Shown here piece by piece: positions 9,762-60,242 of a stretch of 64,000 bases of DNA. Under the pieces are notes generated by a model. That model saw only the letters and a list, made by a program, of their open reading frames with translations. It was not told the origin of the DNA and did no database searches. Positions within the stretch are counted from its first letter, which is position 1. The number at the start of each line of letters is the position of its first letter. The position numbers and the translations under genes are program-made. This stretch comes from Mucilaginibacter sp. (GTDB lineage: Bacteria; Bacteroidota; Bacteroidia; Sphingobacteriales; Sphingobacteriaceae), in NCBI GenBank assembly GCA_965277245.1, contig OZ255719.1:2894076-2958075 (forward strand), read 5' to 3'.

Positions 9762-9763
9762 AG

Positions 9764-9836
9764 AGCGGAAAACGGGATTCGAACCCGCGGCCTTCAGTTT
9801 GGGAAACTGATGCTCTACCAGCTGAGCTATTTCCGC
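9764..9836 (-). tRNA. tRNA-Gly(CCC)
   Basis: GCGGAAA/TTTCCGC acceptor stem, GCTC/GAGC D-stem, TCAGT-TTCCCAA-ACTGA anticodon arm, GGTTCGAATCC T-arm, discriminator U; CCA not encoded. Confidence 0.97.
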
Positions 9837-26145: not shown

Positions 26146-26955
26146 TTATTTTATCCCGTAATGATCATTCATTAACTTCACGAATACAGAACCGGGCAAT
26201 ACTTTCTTTAATGTAGGCACAATTGTTTGGCCAATTGCGCCAACCAGGTAACTATGTGCCGGGCTGTTCTTGCCTATAATCTTTACAATCTGGGCTGCCA
26301 GTTTATCAGGGCTTGCGCCAATGCTTTCATCTTTTTCCATTGCCGCTACCGCTGCGTTAAACTCGCCTTCCAGCTTGTCGTTTTTTATGCCGAAAGCTAT
26401 TTTCTCACGATTGCCTGTAAAATCTGTTTTAAAATCACCAGGGTTTACAACTACTACCTTAATACCGGTATTTTGCAGCTCCATACGCAGGCTTTCAGAA
26501 TAACCCTCAATGGCAAATTTTGACGCGCTATATAAGCCCTGGTAGGGTAAGCCAAATAAGCCGGCAAGGGAGCCTATATTGATCACAAGGCCACGGCCTT
26601 GCGTTATCATCGTTGGTAAAACCGCGCTGCTTGTACGTACCACACCAAAAAAATTGACCTCGAACTGCTTTTTAGCAACATCAACAGGCATTGCATAAAG
26701 TGGCCCTGTAATGCCGTTGCCGGCATTGTTAATCAAAACGTCAATTTTGCCTTCGGCTTCTATTATCTTACTTATTGCTGTATTGACAGAAACATCATCT
26801 GTAACATCCAGTTCAACAGCTTTAAACGAAACAGATGTCATTTTACCTAAATTACGACCAGAGCCGTAAACCGTGTGGCCTTGCGCAGCCAACGCTGTTG
26901 CCGTGGCGAGCCCTAAGCCCGATGATGCACCTGTTACAAGAATTACTTTTTTCAT
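26146..26955 (-). CDS. short-chain dehydrogenase/reductase
   Basis: 'TGASSGLG', 'NNAG', 'YSASKFAIEG' (YxxxK). Confidence 0.93.
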   Translation of the reverse strand: MKKVILVTGASSGLGLATATALAAQGHTVYGSGRNLGKMTSVSFKAVELDVTDDVSVNTAISKIIEAEGKIDVLINNAGNGITGPLYAMPVDVAKKQFEVNFFGVVRTSSAVLPTMITQGRGLVINIGSLAGLFGLPYQGLYSASKFAIEGYSESLRMELQNTGIKVVVVNPGDFKTDFTGNREKIAFGIKNDKLEGEFNAAVAAMEKDESIGASPDKLAAQIVKIIGKNSPAHSYLVGAIGQTIVPTLKKVLPGSVFVKLMNDHYGIK

Positions 26956-27097
26956 TTTATTGGGTGTCTGATTTTACTGCAAGAAAAATTTGCATCGTAA
27001 AGATGCAAAAATATACGAAAGCAAAAAATCGAGTTCGGTTTTGCAACAAAAACGTTATTCATTGAAAATTCATAAAATACTTTATACATTAGCGTCT

Positions 27098-27172
27098 TGT
27101 TAAGTGCTTCGCATTTAACATTGTGATAAGGTTTAGGTAAAGCCCCCAAGCAGCGAGTGCAAGGGGGCTTTT
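27098..27172 (+). ncRNA. candidate small RNA, copy 1 (5' hairpin + conserved core + terminator)
   Basis: Hairpin TGTTAAGTGC-TTC-GCATTTAACA, core ATTGTGATAAGGTTTAGGT, stem AAAGCCCCC/GGGGGCTTT. Promoter-like TTG-N20-TACATTAG upstream. Confidence 0.55.
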
Positions 27173-27276
27173 ATTGTTAAAGCCGGAAAGTTTAAATCCT
27201 ATCGGGATGTTAGGTTTTTCTCACAAAAAAAACAGTCTAAAAATATATTTTCACAAATTTTTACGTTCATAAATGC

Positions 27277-27358
27277 AGTAGGTGCATCTGCACTTGCTAT
27301 TGTGATAAGGTTTAGGTTGAAGTCCCCAAGCAGCGAGTGTAAGGGGACTTCTTTTTTT
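27277..27358 (+). ncRNA. candidate small RNA, copy 2
   Basis: Hairpin AGTAGGTGCA-TC-TGCACTTGCT, identical core, stem GAAGTCCCC/GGGGACTTC followed by T7. Confidence 0.55.
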
Positions 27359-27444: not shown

Positions 27445-27482
27445 AAAAAGCCGTCTGCCCGATAATTAACGGACAAACGGCT
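27445..27482 (-). terminator. intrinsic terminator of nitroreductase gene
   Basis: Minus strand AGCCGTTTGTCCG-N8-CGGGCAGACGGCT followed by a U-tract. Confidence 0.75.
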
Positions 27483-27505: not shown

Positions 27506-28135
27506 TTAAATGCGGATAAACAGATCTTCTGCAGGTTTGCGAACCTTTGCAAATTTGCTGGTAGCATCATCTTCTGCACGGTAACCTATAGTGGCTATAA
27601 CAGAGGCGGTAACACCCTGTTCTTTTAGGCCCAGTATTTCGTCAAACTCTGCGGCGTTAAATCCTTCCATAGGGCAAATGTCAATTCCGAGTTCAGCAGC
27701 GGCTGCAACAAGAATACCTAAGGCAATATAGGCTTGCTTGTGCGACCATGCTAATTTTTGCTCATCGTTCATGTTGCTTAAAGCTCCTGTTAAATATTGT
27801 TTCATCCCATCCAAACTTTCGGCTGGTATGCCGCGTGTTGCAGCAATGTTGTTTATGTAATCTTGTACATAAGCATTATCAATAACAAGCTCCGCGGCAA
27901 ATACAATCACTTCCGAAGCATCGGTAATTTGCGGCTGGCCGTAAGCAACCGGCTGTAGCTTTGCCCGCGTTTCGGCATCTTCAACAACTATAATTTTATA
28001 ATGCTGCAACCCAAAAGAAGATGGCGCAAGCCTTACTGTATCGAGCAAAAGCTGCAGTTTATCTGCAGGGATTTTTTTTGCAGTATCAAATTTTTTTGTG
28101 GCATATCTCCAGGCCAGTTTTTCTAATAATGACAT
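27506..28135 (-). CDS. nitroreductase family NAD(P)H-dependent oxidoreductase
   Basis: 'WRYATKKFD', 'LAPSSFGLQ', 'DICPMEGF', 'IGYR'. Confidence 0.93.
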   Translation of the reverse strand: MSLLEKLAWRYATKKFDTAKKIPADKLQLLLDTVRLAPSSFGLQHYKIIVVEDAETRAKLQPVAYGQPQITDASEVIVFAAELVIDNAYVQDYINNIAATRGIPAESLDGMKQYLTGALSNMNDEQKLAWSHKQAYIALGILVAAAAELGIDICPMEGFNAAEFDEILGLKEQGVTASVIATIGYRAEDDATSKFAKVRKPAEDLFIRI

Positions 28136-59963: not shown

Positions 59964-60035
59964 GGTCCCGTAGTTCAACGGATAGAATAGGAGTTTCCTA
60001 AACTCTAGATATGAGTTCGATTCTCGTCGGGACCA
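59964..60035 (+). tRNA. tRNA-Arg(CCT)
   Basis: GGTCCCG/CGGGACC acceptor stem, GGAGT-TTCCTAA-ACTCT anticodon arm, ATGAG-TTCGATT-CTCGT T-arm. Confidence 0.96.
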
Positions 60036-60242
60036 CAAAGCAGGAAGAAATTAATGATTTTTCTTCCTGCTACCTTACTATCTCCGGGAAATTCGATCCT
60101 CGTTTTTCCAGGCTGCTTAAAAAACGTTTCAGAACCTATTCTACATCATAGCGTAAAAAGATAATTATAACATAATAGATATAGTTAAAACAACTACATT
60201 TATGCGTTTAAACATTCATTTAACAATCCTTAAATTAAAATC

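What the first reader, a model, noticed from the sequence alone, without database searches (positions are those of the whole stretch)
27085..27358. Tandem pair of covarying small-RNA-like units with an invariant single-stranded core
Seen in sequence: two units 179 bp apart in the SDR/nitroreductase intergenic gap share one architecture. (a) A 10-bp 5' hairpin differs completely in sequence between copies (TGTTAAGTGC/GCATTTAACA versus AGTAGGTGCA/TGCACTTGCT). (b) An identical 19-nt linker follows, ATTGTGATAAGGTTTAGGT. (c) A 9-bp terminator stem shows compensatory changes (AAAGCCCCC/GGGGGCTTT versus GAAGTCCCC/GGGGACTTC). It is capped in both by an AA/AA internal loop and a GCA-GCGAG-TGY mini-hairpin, then a U-tract. 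Copy 1 has TTG-N20-TACATTAG just upstream, and the same TAnnTTAG variant precedes tRNA-Gly in this window. No conserved ORF is present. Inference: structure kept while sequence diverges, plus an invariant unpaired core and a conserved apical loop, is the signature of a duplicated trans-acting sRNA family. I do not recognise it as a named family.
Basis: partly seen in the sequence, partly recalled or inferred. Interest (0 to 1): 0.8.

Follow-up and report, generated by a model that had tools for sequence, protein, structure and literature searches.

The report
Multicopy small RNA with invariant seed
The two units are genuine neighbouring genes of a previously uncatalogued small-RNA family that soil Sphingobacteriaceae carry in about ten or more copies per genome and that their phages also carry; every copy shares the same 15-16-base unpaired sequence, and what that sequence binds is still unknown.

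Summary
Both units (27098-27178 and 27277-27358, + strand) have a sequence-variable 5' hairpin, an identical unpaired 19-mer and an extended intrinsic terminator. No Rfam 15 family matches. FopS, the closest analogue, scores 12.6 bits against a cut-off of 56.

The 19-mer occurs in at least 120 genome loci, mostly Mucilaginibacter but also Pedobacter, Daejeonella, Hufsiella and Desertivirga. Nearly all share the same architecture. All 20 modelled base pairs show compensatory changes, and 96.6% of cells are paired.

A search anchored on the terminator alone, so unbiased for the core, shows that TGATAAGGTTTAGGT is kept in 96 of 97 distinct copies. The source genome holds roughly 10-15 copies.

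Copies sit at conserved syntenic positions. Most have promoter-like boxes of the Bacteroidetes type, and one group has a sigma-54-like box. Twenty-four phage contigs also carry the RNA, often directly after tRNA or tmRNA genes.

Best reading: a multicopy trans-acting regulatory sRNA that acts through an invariant seed, analogous to Bacteroides FopS. Targets were not found, and expression evidence comes only from metatranscriptome contigs. This is a new family of a known kind.

The parts
27062..27092 (+). Promoter-like region of unit 1: TTG (27062-27064), 20 nt, then the -7-type box TACATTAG (27085-27092).
   Evidence: Read directly from the sequence. The sigma-70-type scan also flags 27062-27090. 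Boxes like TAnnTTTG end 23-36 nt before the core in 28 of the 32 related copies that have an exact box. This is a consensus match only; the transcription start was not mapped.
27098..27120 (+). Unit 1 5' hairpin: 10 bp, loop TTC. Its last pair uses the first base of the 19-mer.
   Evidence: MFE fold. Model R1 match 27100-27177, 78.3 bits. Family-wide, 8 of 8 hairpin pairs show compensatory changes.
27120..27138 (+). Unit 1 unpaired core ATTGTGATAAGGTTTAGGT. The family-invariant part is GTGATAAGGTTTAGGT at 27123-27138.
   Evidence: Exact repeat. Unpaired in the MFE fold and in the RNAalifold consensus. Invariance shown with terminator-anchored ascertainment.
27139..27178 (+). Unit 1 extended intrinsic terminator: 9-bp stem, AA/AA internal loop, 3-bp cap with GCGAG pentaloop, then TATTGTT.
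   Evidence: Covariation in 10 of 12 pairs. The GCRAG loop is specific to this family.
27262..27269 (+). Promoter-like -7 box of unit 2 (TACGTTCA), 8 nt before the hairpin.
   Evidence: Read directly from the sequence. TACGTTTG, TACGTTAG and TACGTTTA sit at the same place in related copies such as L020, L036 and L045. Consensus match only.
27277..27298 (+). Unit 2 5' hairpin (AGTAGGTGCA/TC/TGCACTTGCT, two G-U pairs).
   Evidence: R1 match 27278-27357, 73.1 bits.
27299..27317 (+). Unit 2 unpaired core, identical to the unit 1 core.
27318..27358 (+). Unit 2 extended intrinsic terminator: GAAGTCCCC/GGGGACTTC stem, AA/AA loop, GCA-GCGAG-TGT cap, then T7.
   Evidence: Positions 27299-27350 are 100% identical to contigs in four metatranscriptomes.

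Best explanation
Each unit is an independent gene for a 70-85-nt non-coding RNA of a multicopy family. I estimate roughly 10-15 copies in this genome. The family is found in Sphingobacteriaceae and in their phages.

The RNA has three parts.
1. A 5' hairpin whose sequence is free but whose pairing is kept. Its inferred role is 5'-end protection or processing. It is absent in some lineages.
2. An always-unpaired 15-16-nt sequence, GUGAUAAGGUUUAGGU.
3. An extended Rho-independent terminator. In most copies its tip is a family-specific GCRAG pentaloop.

Inferred mechanism: the invariant single-stranded segment is a seed. It acts in trans by pairing with C/U/A-rich sequences (...ACCUAAACCUUAUCAC...) in 5' UTRs or translation-initiation regions of mRNAs, and represses them. 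An RNA-binding protein that recognises the core or the GCRAG loop probably assists.

Paralogues carry different promoters. Most have Bacteroidetes sigma-A -7 boxes. One syntenic paralogue, next to an ECF sigma/anti-sigma operon, has a sigma-54-like -24/-12 box. Different signals would therefore converge on one regulon. Phages carry their own copies and so would tap the same regulon.

Shown: the gene family, the structure, the core invariance, the copy number, the synteny and the phage carriage. Inferred: transcript ends, trans-action, base-pairing as the mode of action, and target class.
For: Structure:
- Both helices are supported by compensatory changes in 20 of 20 pairs, with 96.6% of cells paired against 35-59% for slid controls.
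- RNAalifold independently finds the same fold with the core unpaired.
- The terminator shows the same on a plain MAFFT alignment: 10 of 12 pairs covary.
- A stable 5' hairpin (MFE <= -6 kcal/mol in the 26 nt upstream) is present in 92 of 116 copies and in none of the 116 same-locus control averages. The upstream 20-mers fall into 77 sequence clusters.
- Many G-U pairs indicate that the + strand is the RNA strand.

Core:
- With copies collected through the terminator tip alone, 68 of 97 distinct sequences have the exact 19-mer.
- Another 28 differ only in the first 1-4 nt.

Gene-like behaviour:
- Promoter-like boxes lie at fixed distances.
- Paralogues sit at conserved syntenic positions: ECF sigma/anti-sigma, then the sRNA, then DUF2911; and the sRNA, then a GreA-like gene, then an RRM_1 gene.
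- About 10-15 copies are present in the source genome.

The GCRAG loop occurs in none of about 550 other terminator-like hairpins.

Expression:
- Matching contigs occur in soil, plant and litter metatranscriptomes.
- One 92-nt contig (mean word depth 11.1) runs from an 18-nt 5' hairpin through the terminator and stops in the U tract, directly joined to Illumina adaptor sequence.

Phages:
- 24 viral contigs carry full-architecture copies next to DNA polymerase, exonuclease, portal, major head and protease genes.
- Several lie directly 3' of tRNA or tmRNA genes.

Analogy: FopS sRNAs of Bacteroides have 14 paralogues with a single-stranded seed plus terminator. They repress susC translation and bind the RRM-1 protein RbpB (PMC11697453).
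Against: - No target was established.
- Short complementary words are not enriched in 1 Mb of neighbouring sequence.
- Duplex energies at 874 start regions exceed shuffled seeds only through the few perfect or near-perfect sites.
- The two candidate target genes do not keep the site in more distant orthologues.
- Invariance of 15-16 contiguous bases is more than base-pairing seeds usually need. It would fit a protein-binding site equally well.
- Expression evidence comes from assembled contigs without strand information. Some of them extend beyond the RNA.
- No RNA-seq of the source organism was available.
- Promoters are consensus matches only.
Confidence: 0.6

Rival explanations
1. Protein-binding or protein-titrating RNA. 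The invariant 15-16-nt segment, the GCRAG loop or both are a recognition site for a protein, for example an RRM-1 protein of the RbpB type, a nuclease or a defence or translation factor. The RNA would work by sequestering or delivering that protein rather than by pairing with mRNAs.
For: - The contiguous invariance is unusually long.
- The terminator loop is conserved and family-specific.
- One paralogue is syntenic with an RRM_1 gene in at least 9 loci, and an orphan core lies 87 nt upstream of another RRM_1 gene in L083.
- Phage copies are placed within tRNA/tmRNA clusters.
- No mRNA targets were found.
Against: - Each RNA has only one core, whereas titrating RNAs such as CsrB carry many sites.
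- The synteny with the RRM gene may be plain vertical inheritance within one genus.
- The RRM gene 5' UTRs show no core-like motif.
- This reading is not exclusive of base-pairing: FopS both binds RbpB and pairs with mRNAs.
Confidence: 0.2
2. Guide RNA for a nucleic-acid-targeting effector. The constant 19-21-nt segment would direct a protein to identical DNA or RNA sites, as in RNA-guided transcription control. Alternatively it could mark recombination (att-type) sites used by mobile elements.
For: - Five exact 19-21-nt matches lie outside sRNA genes, in intergenic DNA next to promoter-like boxes or gene starts.
- One paralogue lies next to an ECF sigma operon.
- Bacteroidota are known to use dCas12f, a guide RNA and an ECF sigma factor for RNA-guided transcription (PMC13472631).
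- Some phage copies abut tRNA/tmRNA 3' ends or T-arm-like fragments, which are typical att contexts.
Against: - No effector gene (Cas12f, TnpB or IscB type) recurs next to the copies.
- dCas12f guide RNAs are 85-105 nt with the guide at the 3' end, and they sit beside dcas12f. Here the constant segment is internal and followed by a terminator.
- The putative guide is the same in all copies and species.
- Orphan sites are rare, about 4% of exact matches.
- The four with a usable downstream ATG (L033, L047, L083 and the near-match L118) are on the sense strand of that gene. That fits RNA targets better than DNA targets.
- The ECF operon has its own GTAACC-N17-CGTC promoter, unlike the sRNA promoter.
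Confidence: 0.07
3. Non-functional or DNA-level repeat. The units would be REP/MITE-like palindromic elements, or merely decorated terminators spread by duplication.
For: The element is multicopy and dispersed. The 3' part is a bona fide terminator-like hairpin. Tandem duplicates exist, in the window and in L002.
Against: - Copies occupy conserved syntenic sites across species.
- They carry promoter-like boxes in one orientation.
- They show strand-specific G-U pairing.
- The unpaired part is kept invariant while the paired parts drift.
- There are no terminal inverted repeats.
- There are only about 10-15 copies per genome.
- The window units point away from both flanking genes, so they do not terminate them.
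Confidence: 0.03

Closest known systems
FopS / GibS sRNA family of Bacteroides (Rfam RF04319 BTncRNA_FopS; PMC11697453)
   Same: Same phylum. Both are multicopy, with 14 paralogues in B. thetaiotaomicron and about 10-15 here. Both are about 65-85 nt. [quoted passage not shown] FopS represses envelope (SusC) mRNAs at the start codon and binds the RRM-1 protein RbpB. Here one paralogue is syntenic with an RRM_1 gene.
   Different: There is no detectable homology: 12.6 bits against a gathering score of 56. The seed sequence is different. Most copies here have an extra 5' hairpin, so the seed is internal. The terminator loop is a family-specific GCRAG. One paralogue has a sigma-54-like promoter. 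Phages carry copies. Targets and protein partner are unknown here.
Qrr1-5 sRNAs of Vibrio
   Same: Several paralogues share an identical long single-stranded region and are thought to act additively or redundantly on one regulon. They are sigma-54-dependent, as proposed here for the paralogue next to the ECF operon.
   Different: Unrelated in sequence and structure. Qrr sRNAs are Hfq-dependent, and all of them use sigma-54. Here only about a quarter of the sampled copies have the -24/-12-like box, and the two window units do not.
Envelope-stress sRNAs linked to ECF sigma factors (MicA, RybB, MicL of Enterobacteria)
   Same: The genomic and logical association of an sRNA with an ECF sigma/anti-sigma module. 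The candidate orphan-site genes encode membrane or secreted proteins.
   Different: The sRNA promoter here does not resemble the ECF promoter of the adjacent operon. No OMP target has been shown.
Small stable RNAs and sRNAs encoded in phage tRNA clusters or prophages (for example T4 species 1/2 RNAs, DicF)
   Same: Phage copies sit at the end of tRNA arrays or directly after a tmRNA gene, or have their own promoter-like box.
   Different: Here the phage RNA is a member of a host core-genome family and has the identical seed.

Membership tests
Rfam families (any of 4227, release 15) | Covariance-model score at or above the family's gathering threshold | tested here: not met
   Only two tRNAs pass in the window. 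At E<=10 the units give only terminator-type chance matches at 7-25 bits against cut-offs of 37-70.
FopS (RF04319) | Match to the FopS covariance model, which covers the seed R1' plus the terminator | tested here: not met
   12.6 bits, E 6.6, gathering score 56, on the L079 copy. FopS is not listed at all for the window units.
FopS (RF04319) | Multicopy paralogous sRNAs with a single-stranded seed followed by an intrinsic terminator | tested here: met
   This is a resemblance of design, not evidence of homology.
FopS (RF04319) | Binding by RRM-1 protein RbpB and repression of susC-type mRNAs at the start codon | not testable with these tools
   The only evidence is synteny of one paralogue with an RRM_1 gene.
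Trans-acting base-pairing sRNA (generic class) | Own promoter and intrinsic terminator, and no conserved ORF | tested here: met
   Promoter-like boxes at fixed distance. Terminators. The core contains TGA and TAG in two of the three + strand reading frames (read from the sequence). The 5' hairpin varies in length and sequence, which leaves no conserved reading frame upstream. Promoters are consensus matches only.
Trans-acting base-pairing sRNA (generic class) | Discrete small transcript | tested here: inconclusive
   Contigs are present in metatranscriptomes. One 92-nt contig ends in the U tract, joined directly to adaptor sequence. Other contigs extend beyond the RNA. No strand-specific reads were available.
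Trans-acting base-pairing sRNA (generic class) | Conserved unpaired seed | tested here: met
   TGATAAGGTTTAGGT is present in 96 of 97 distinct copies ascertained through the terminator. It is unpaired in the consensus fold.
Trans-acting base-pairing sRNA (generic class) | Conserved complementary sites in target mRNAs | tested here: inconclusive
   There are five orphan perfect sites and one 16-of-19 site at a start codon. There is no enrichment in 874 start regions beyond these sites. Orthologue tests were not significant. Whole genomes could not be scanned.
REP / MITE-type repeats | Many dispersed copies without their own promoter, variable presence, terminal inverted repeats or target-site duplications, no syntenic conservation | tested here: not met
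   Syntenic groups of 31 and 11 loci. About 10-15 copies per genome. Oriented promoter-like boxes.
dCas12f / omega-RNA-type guide RNAs | Encoded beside the effector gene; a 5' scaffold with a variable 14-20-nt guide at the 3' end | tested here: not met
   No recurrent effector-like neighbour. The constant segment is internal and followed by a terminator. Compare the description in PMC13472631.
Sigma-54-dependent sRNA genes | GG-N10-GC type -24/-12 element at fixed distance from the transcription start | tested here: inconclusive
   TGGYAY-N5-TTGY ends 33-36 nt before the core in 24 copies. These are 24 of only 44 such motifs in 1.9 Mb. Most have GT rather than GC at -12. This does not apply to the two window units.

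The most novel reading that the evidence does not exclude
The RNA is one half of a dedicated, still unknown RNA-protein system of Sphingobacteriaceae. A partner protein would read the family-specific GCRAG terminator loop, and the universal 16-nt segment would be used as a fixed guide or address for identical 19-21-nt sites such as the orphan cores near promoters and gene starts. Phages would carry the RNA to hijack or disarm that system. This is more than an ordinary imperfect-pairing sRNA.
Probability: 0.12. Interest if true: 0.85.

Novelty: new member of a known kind. Interest (0 to 1): 0.6.

Why it matters
Very little is known about post-transcriptional control in Bacteroidota outside gut Bacteroides. 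These bacteria lack Hfq and ProQ and rarely use Shine-Dalgarno sequences.

This family offers a well-defined entry point for abundant soil and plant-associated Sphingobacteriaceae. It has about ten or more copies per genome and one universal 15-16-nt single-stranded sequence. Its paralogues carry different promoter types, so several signals could feed into one regulon. It also has a terminator loop that looks like a protein handle.

Unrelated phages carry the same RNA, often within tRNA or tmRNA clusters. That suggests the RNA controls something that matters during infection.

The covariance model and alignment built here would allow the family to be annotated, and they make target and partner searches directly testable.

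Tried and rejected
1. Known families. Rfam at gathering and at permissive thresholds gave no family. Full-text searches for the core sequence gave 0 papers, and the other literature searches found nothing on sRNAs in Sphingobacteriaceae.

2. dCas12f guide RNA (PMC13472631). Rejected on architecture and on the lack of a neighbouring effector gene.

3. ECF-dependent promoter for the paralogue next to the ECF operon. Rejected: the operon's own promoter, GTAACC-N17-CGTC, is unlike the sRNA promoter.

4. Target search.
- Counts of k-mers complementary to the core showed no enrichment.
- RNAduplex on 874 start regions against shuffled seeds gave excess only from perfect or near-perfect sites, two of which are simply antisense to sRNA genes.
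- The DUF2911 gene downstream of the sigma-54-type paralogue has a partial site in only 3-4 of about 10 loci.
- In the SRPBCC membrane gene of L047, the site decays from 19 of 19 to about 17 and then about 12 matching bases. It is absent in orthologues at 60-67% identity.
- The 195-aa secreted protein of L118 gave p of about 0.12 once L118 itself was left out.
- No self-targets were found in the phage loci.

5. Pseudoknot between the GCGAG loop and the loop of the 5' hairpin. On inspecting the listed sequences, the complementary CUCGC is present in only a few copies. Not general.

6. Pairing with the 16S 3' end. From memory of the sequence only 4-5 bp are possible. This was not tested with tools.

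7. GenBank phage and plasmid collections gave no match.

8. The exact nitroreductase protein is not on record, so the source could not be identified that way.

9. RNA-run contigs for the L079 paralogue do not give transcript ends.
Full report
OBSERVATION

The intergenic gap lies between a short-chain dehydrogenase gene (26146-26955, - strand) and a nitroreductase gene (27506-28135, - strand).

Unit 1:
- A 10-bp hairpin at 27098-27120.
- The 19-mer ATTGTGATAAGGTTTAGGT at 27120-27138.
- A hairpin at 27139-27171 made of a 9-bp stem, an AA/AA internal loop and a GCA-GCGAG-TGC cap, followed by TATTGTT.

Unit 2:
- A different hairpin at 27277-27298.
- The same 19-mer at 27299-27317.
- A stem at 27319-27351 with two compensatory pair changes and the same cap (TGT instead of TGC), followed by T7.

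The 19-mer and the cap each occur exactly twice in the 64-kb window even when 3 mismatches are allowed. Chance expectation is 0.01 and 0.04. Both units fold as drawn, with the 19-mer unpaired (z -4.25 and -4.5). The opposite strand folds worse because G-U pairs become A-C mismatches.

Unit 1 is preceded by TTG-N20-TACATTAG.

IS IT A KNOWN FAMILY?

No. Rfam 15 gives only two tRNAs in the window at gathering thresholds. With permissive thresholds on the region, and on single units, only low-scoring terminator-type matches appear. The Bacteroides FopS model (RF04319) scores 12.6 bits against a cut-off of 56. A full-text search for the core sequence found no paper.

A LARGE FAMILY

- About 89 are labelled Mucilaginibacter.
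- The rest are Pedobacter, Daejeonella, Hufsiella, Desertivirga or unclassified Sphingobacteriales/Bacteroidota bins.
- Two bins carry Methylococcaceae and Janthinobacterium labels. These are most likely mis-binned contigs (my inference).
- Several genomes contribute 2-4 dispersed loci.

Of 122 instances, 117 show the same design: a hairpin of free sequence, the core, an extended terminator and a T tract. A few lineages (Desertivirga, Pedobacter sp. SYSU) lack the 5' hairpin and place a TATATTTG-type box 10-11 nt before the core. The minimal unit is therefore core plus terminator.

Laying the contigs of the source organism's own sequencing run on the two units gave 21 pieces. Depth was 81-108 over the core and terminator against 13-18 for the flanks. 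That corresponds to roughly 10-15 copies in this genome.

STRUCTURE IS SELECTED, SEQUENCE IS NOT

On a plain MAFFT alignment of 28 copies, the terminator has 97% of cells paired. Ten of 12 pairs have changes on both sides, and no shuffle or slid control came near.

The 26 nt upstream of the core fold to a mean of -8.0 kcal/mol. Control 26-mers from the same loci give -1.9. Ninety-two of 116 copies reach -6 or lower, and no control average does. The upstream 20-mers fall into 77 clusters at 80% identity.

A covariance model (R1) finds exactly the two units in the window, at 78.3 and 73.1 bits, and 99 matches in 100 sources. On that alignment all 20 pairs show compensatory changes and 96.6% of cells pair, against 35-59% when partners are slid. 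The alignment is fitted to the model, so these counts lean towards the structure. RNAalifold nevertheless predicts the same two helices independently and leaves the core unpaired.

THE CORE IS INVARIANT UNDER INDEPENDENT ASCERTAINMENT

The genome scan required the 19-mer, so it could not test invariance. I therefore scanned metagenome contigs for the terminator tip alone (CCCAAGCAGCGAGTGYAAGGG). Among 97 distinct sequences:
- 68 carry the exact 19-mer.
- 28 differ only within its first 1-4 bases.
- One is an outlier.

The constant element is therefore (G)UGAUAAGGUUUAGGU, 15-16 nt. Across 1.69 Mb of collected loci there are 243 exact 15-mers and none with a single mismatch.

The GCRAG pentaloop at the tip of the terminator belongs to this family. 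No other terminator-like hairpin in the loci has it, out of about 550.

GENES, NOT REPEATS

Copies sit at conserved positions.
- Thirty-one loci share the order ECF sigma factor, anti-sigma-like membrane protein, sRNA, and in at least 11 of them DUF2911.
- Eleven share sRNA followed by a GreA-like protein. In nine of these an RRM_1 RNA-binding protein gene follows the GreA-like gene.

Twenty-four copies, mostly of the first group, have TGGYAY-N5-TTGY ending 33-36 nt before the core. Only 44 such motifs exist in 1.9 Mb. The GG-N10-G(T/C) spacing is that of sigma-54 promoters, by established knowledge of the TGGCAC-N5-TTGC consensus. Variants move toward that consensus: TGGCAC in L104 and L112, TTGC in L004, L046, L077 and L081. 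The adjacent ECF operon has a different, typical ECF promoter, GTAACC-N17-CGTC.

Other copies have exact or near TAnnTTTG boxes, which is the Bacteroidetes sigma-A -7 element. Of the 32 copies with an exact box, 28 have it ending 23-36 nt before the core and 4 have it 5-11 nt before. All promoter assignments are consensus matches.

EXPRESSION

No RNA-seq of the source organism was found. Soil, phyllosphere, plant, permafrost and litter metatranscriptome assemblies contain the RNA. Four runs have contigs 100% identical (three runs) or at least 90% identical (one run) to 27299-27350, joined to other 5' hairpins.

One 92-nt contig (mean word depth 11.1) consists of an 18-nt hairpin, the core and the terminator, and ends within the U tract directly joined to Illumina adaptor. 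That is what a defined RNA 3' end would give. Other contigs run past the RNA on both sides. Contigs carry no strand information. Expression is therefore likely but not proven.

PHAGES CARRY IT

A scan of viral contigs for the 16-mer gave 40 loci. Model R1 recognises 24 of them as full copies at 32-72 bits.

Their neighbours are phage genes by PHROGs: DNA polymerase and exonuclease (L261), portal (L277), major head protein and HNH endonuclease (L255/L273), and head maturation protease (L250).

Several phage copies have their own TAnnTTTG box (L261, L277, L278, L279). Others lie directly after stable-RNA genes:
- A tmRNA gene in L266, with a 19-nt gap.
- A tRNA in L284, with no gap.
- A tRNA in L252, 22 nt away.
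- An array of five tRNAs in L268.
- tRNA-Pro in L269.

None of about 240 host copies follows a tRNA. Sequenced GenBank phages and plasmids have no match.

MECHANISM

The anatomy is that of a trans-acting sRNA: promoter, optional protective 5' hairpin, an accessible constant segment and a terminator. It is present as many differently promoted paralogues that share one seed.

The closest experimentally studied analogue is FopS in Bacteroides. FopS has 14 paralogues of about 65-70 nt with a single-stranded seed plus terminator. It represses SusC-type mRNAs at the start codon and is bound by the RRM-1 protein RbpB.

I therefore propose base-pairing of GUGAUAAGGUUUAGGU with ...ACCUAAACCUUAUCAC... 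in 5' UTRs, possibly aided by a protein that reads the core or the GCRAG loop. Phage copies would tap the same regulon.

My confidence that this is a functional RNA gene family is about 0.9. My confidence that it acts in trans through the seed by base-pairing is about 0.55-0.6.

TARGETS: LEADS ONLY

Five exact 19-21-nt occurrences lack both hairpins (L033, L047, L078, L083, L108). Read on the opposite strand:
- The complement lies at -32..-14 of a membrane SRPBCC gene (L047).
- It lies 77 nt before a DUF2975 gene (L033).
- It lies at -21..-3 of a 35-codon ORF (L083).
- In four of the five, a -7-like box lies 11-17 nt upstream.

A sixth site with 16 of 19 matches abuts the AUG of a 195-aa signal-peptide protein (L118).

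The statistics are weak.
- Complementary k-mers are not enriched.
- At 874 start regions, only the perfect or near-perfect sites exceed shuffled seeds.
- The SRPBCC site decays with divergence and is absent in orthologues at 60-67% identity.
- For the L118 gene, orthologue complementarity is not significant once L118 is excluded: 124 of 1000 shuffles do as well.

L083 can also be read in sense, as a longer variant sRNA ending at a small terminator just upstream of an RRM_1 gene. Whole genomes could not be scanned with the tools available, so the target question stays open.

RIVALS

- A protein-binding RNA (0.2) is favoured by the unusually long invariance, the loop and the RRM synteny. It is not exclusive of base-pairing.
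- A guide or att-type role (0.07) is suggested by the perfect orphan sites and the tRNA/tmRNA contexts in phages. No effector gene recurs, and the architecture differs from dCas12f guide RNAs.
- REP/MITE-like repeats or mere terminators (0.03) are contradicted by the synteny, the oriented promoter-like boxes, the G-U strand bias and the selection on the unpaired part. The window units point away from both flanking genes.

VERDICT

This is a new sRNA family, absent from Rfam 15 and from the searched literature, of a known kind. Features of note are a 15-16-nt universal seed, a family-specific terminator loop, mixed promoter types and carriage by phages.

The tandem arrangement in the window is a local duplication. 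In a related genome (organism H, run X13) the two unit types lie on separate contigs. M. aquaedulcis has another tandem pair whose upstream copy has a decayed core.

Noticed in passing
L250-L289 (viral contigs), e.g. L261:8215-8290(-), L266:6241-6317(+), L284:6940-7018(-): Twenty-four phage contigs carry full copies of the sRNA with the same core. They lie next to DNA polymerase, exonuclease, portal, major head and protease genes. Several follow a tmRNA gene, a tRNA gene or a five-tRNA array directly. Three more (L251, L276, L288) follow T-arm-like fragments that are not called as tRNAs.
   Followed up: partly
L033:3616-3634, L047:3523-3541, L078:7926-7944, L083:1833-1851, L108:6978-6996: Exact 19-21-nt copies of the core without hairpin or terminator. 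On the opposite strand most lie just downstream of a -7-like box and upstream of a gene start. They could be targets, sponges, variant sRNAs or recombination remnants; this was not resolved.
   Followed up: partly
L079:5003-5020(-) and the equivalent place in about 24-28 other loci (L016, L038, L051, L060, L089, L104, L112 and others): A conserved TTGGTAYAGTAATTGTA motif with sigma-54-like GG-N10-GT/GC spacing lies 33-36 nt upstream of the core in the paralogue that follows an ECF sigma/anti-sigma operon. Palindromes 60-90 nt further upstream (e.g. GTGTGTTAAAGTAACACAC in L038) could be enhancer-binding-protein sites.
   Followed up: partly
L007, L032, L036, L053, L069, L071, L075, L118 (also L086 in a different context): One paralogue is syntenic with a GreA-like 150-aa gene followed by an RRM_1 RNA-binding protein gene (MNIFVGSLP...KGFGFVEM). 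This protein class binds the analogous FopS sRNAs in Bacteroides.
   Followed up: partly
L002:4188-4255(-) and L002:3869-3947(-): A second tandem pair, in Mucilaginibacter aquaedulcis. The upstream copy keeps the terminator (AGACCTCC...GGAGGTCT) but has a decayed core, CTTATTTTAAGTTTAGGT (37.4 bits).
   Followed up: no
window 26989-27009: [quoted passage not shown] The scan flags it as terminator-like, but its position fits a 5' UTR hairpin or operator better.
   Followed up: no
window 27449-27480: The hairpin GCCGTCTGCCCG...CGGACAAACGGC, flanked by A/T runs, lies just after the stop codon of the nitroreductase gene. It is probably that gene's terminator on the - strand and possibly bidirectional.
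   Followed up: no
window 59964-60036 and 9763-9836: tRNA-Arg(CCT) is preceded by a perfect TATATTTG box and tRNA-Gly(CCC) by TACTTTAG. These are useful local references for the promoter type of this organism.
   Followed up: yes
L078:7540-7920(-): By eye, a sequence resembling SRP (4.5S) RNA with its own TATCTTTG box lies just downstream of the orphan core on the - strand. It was not checked against Rfam.
   Followed up: no
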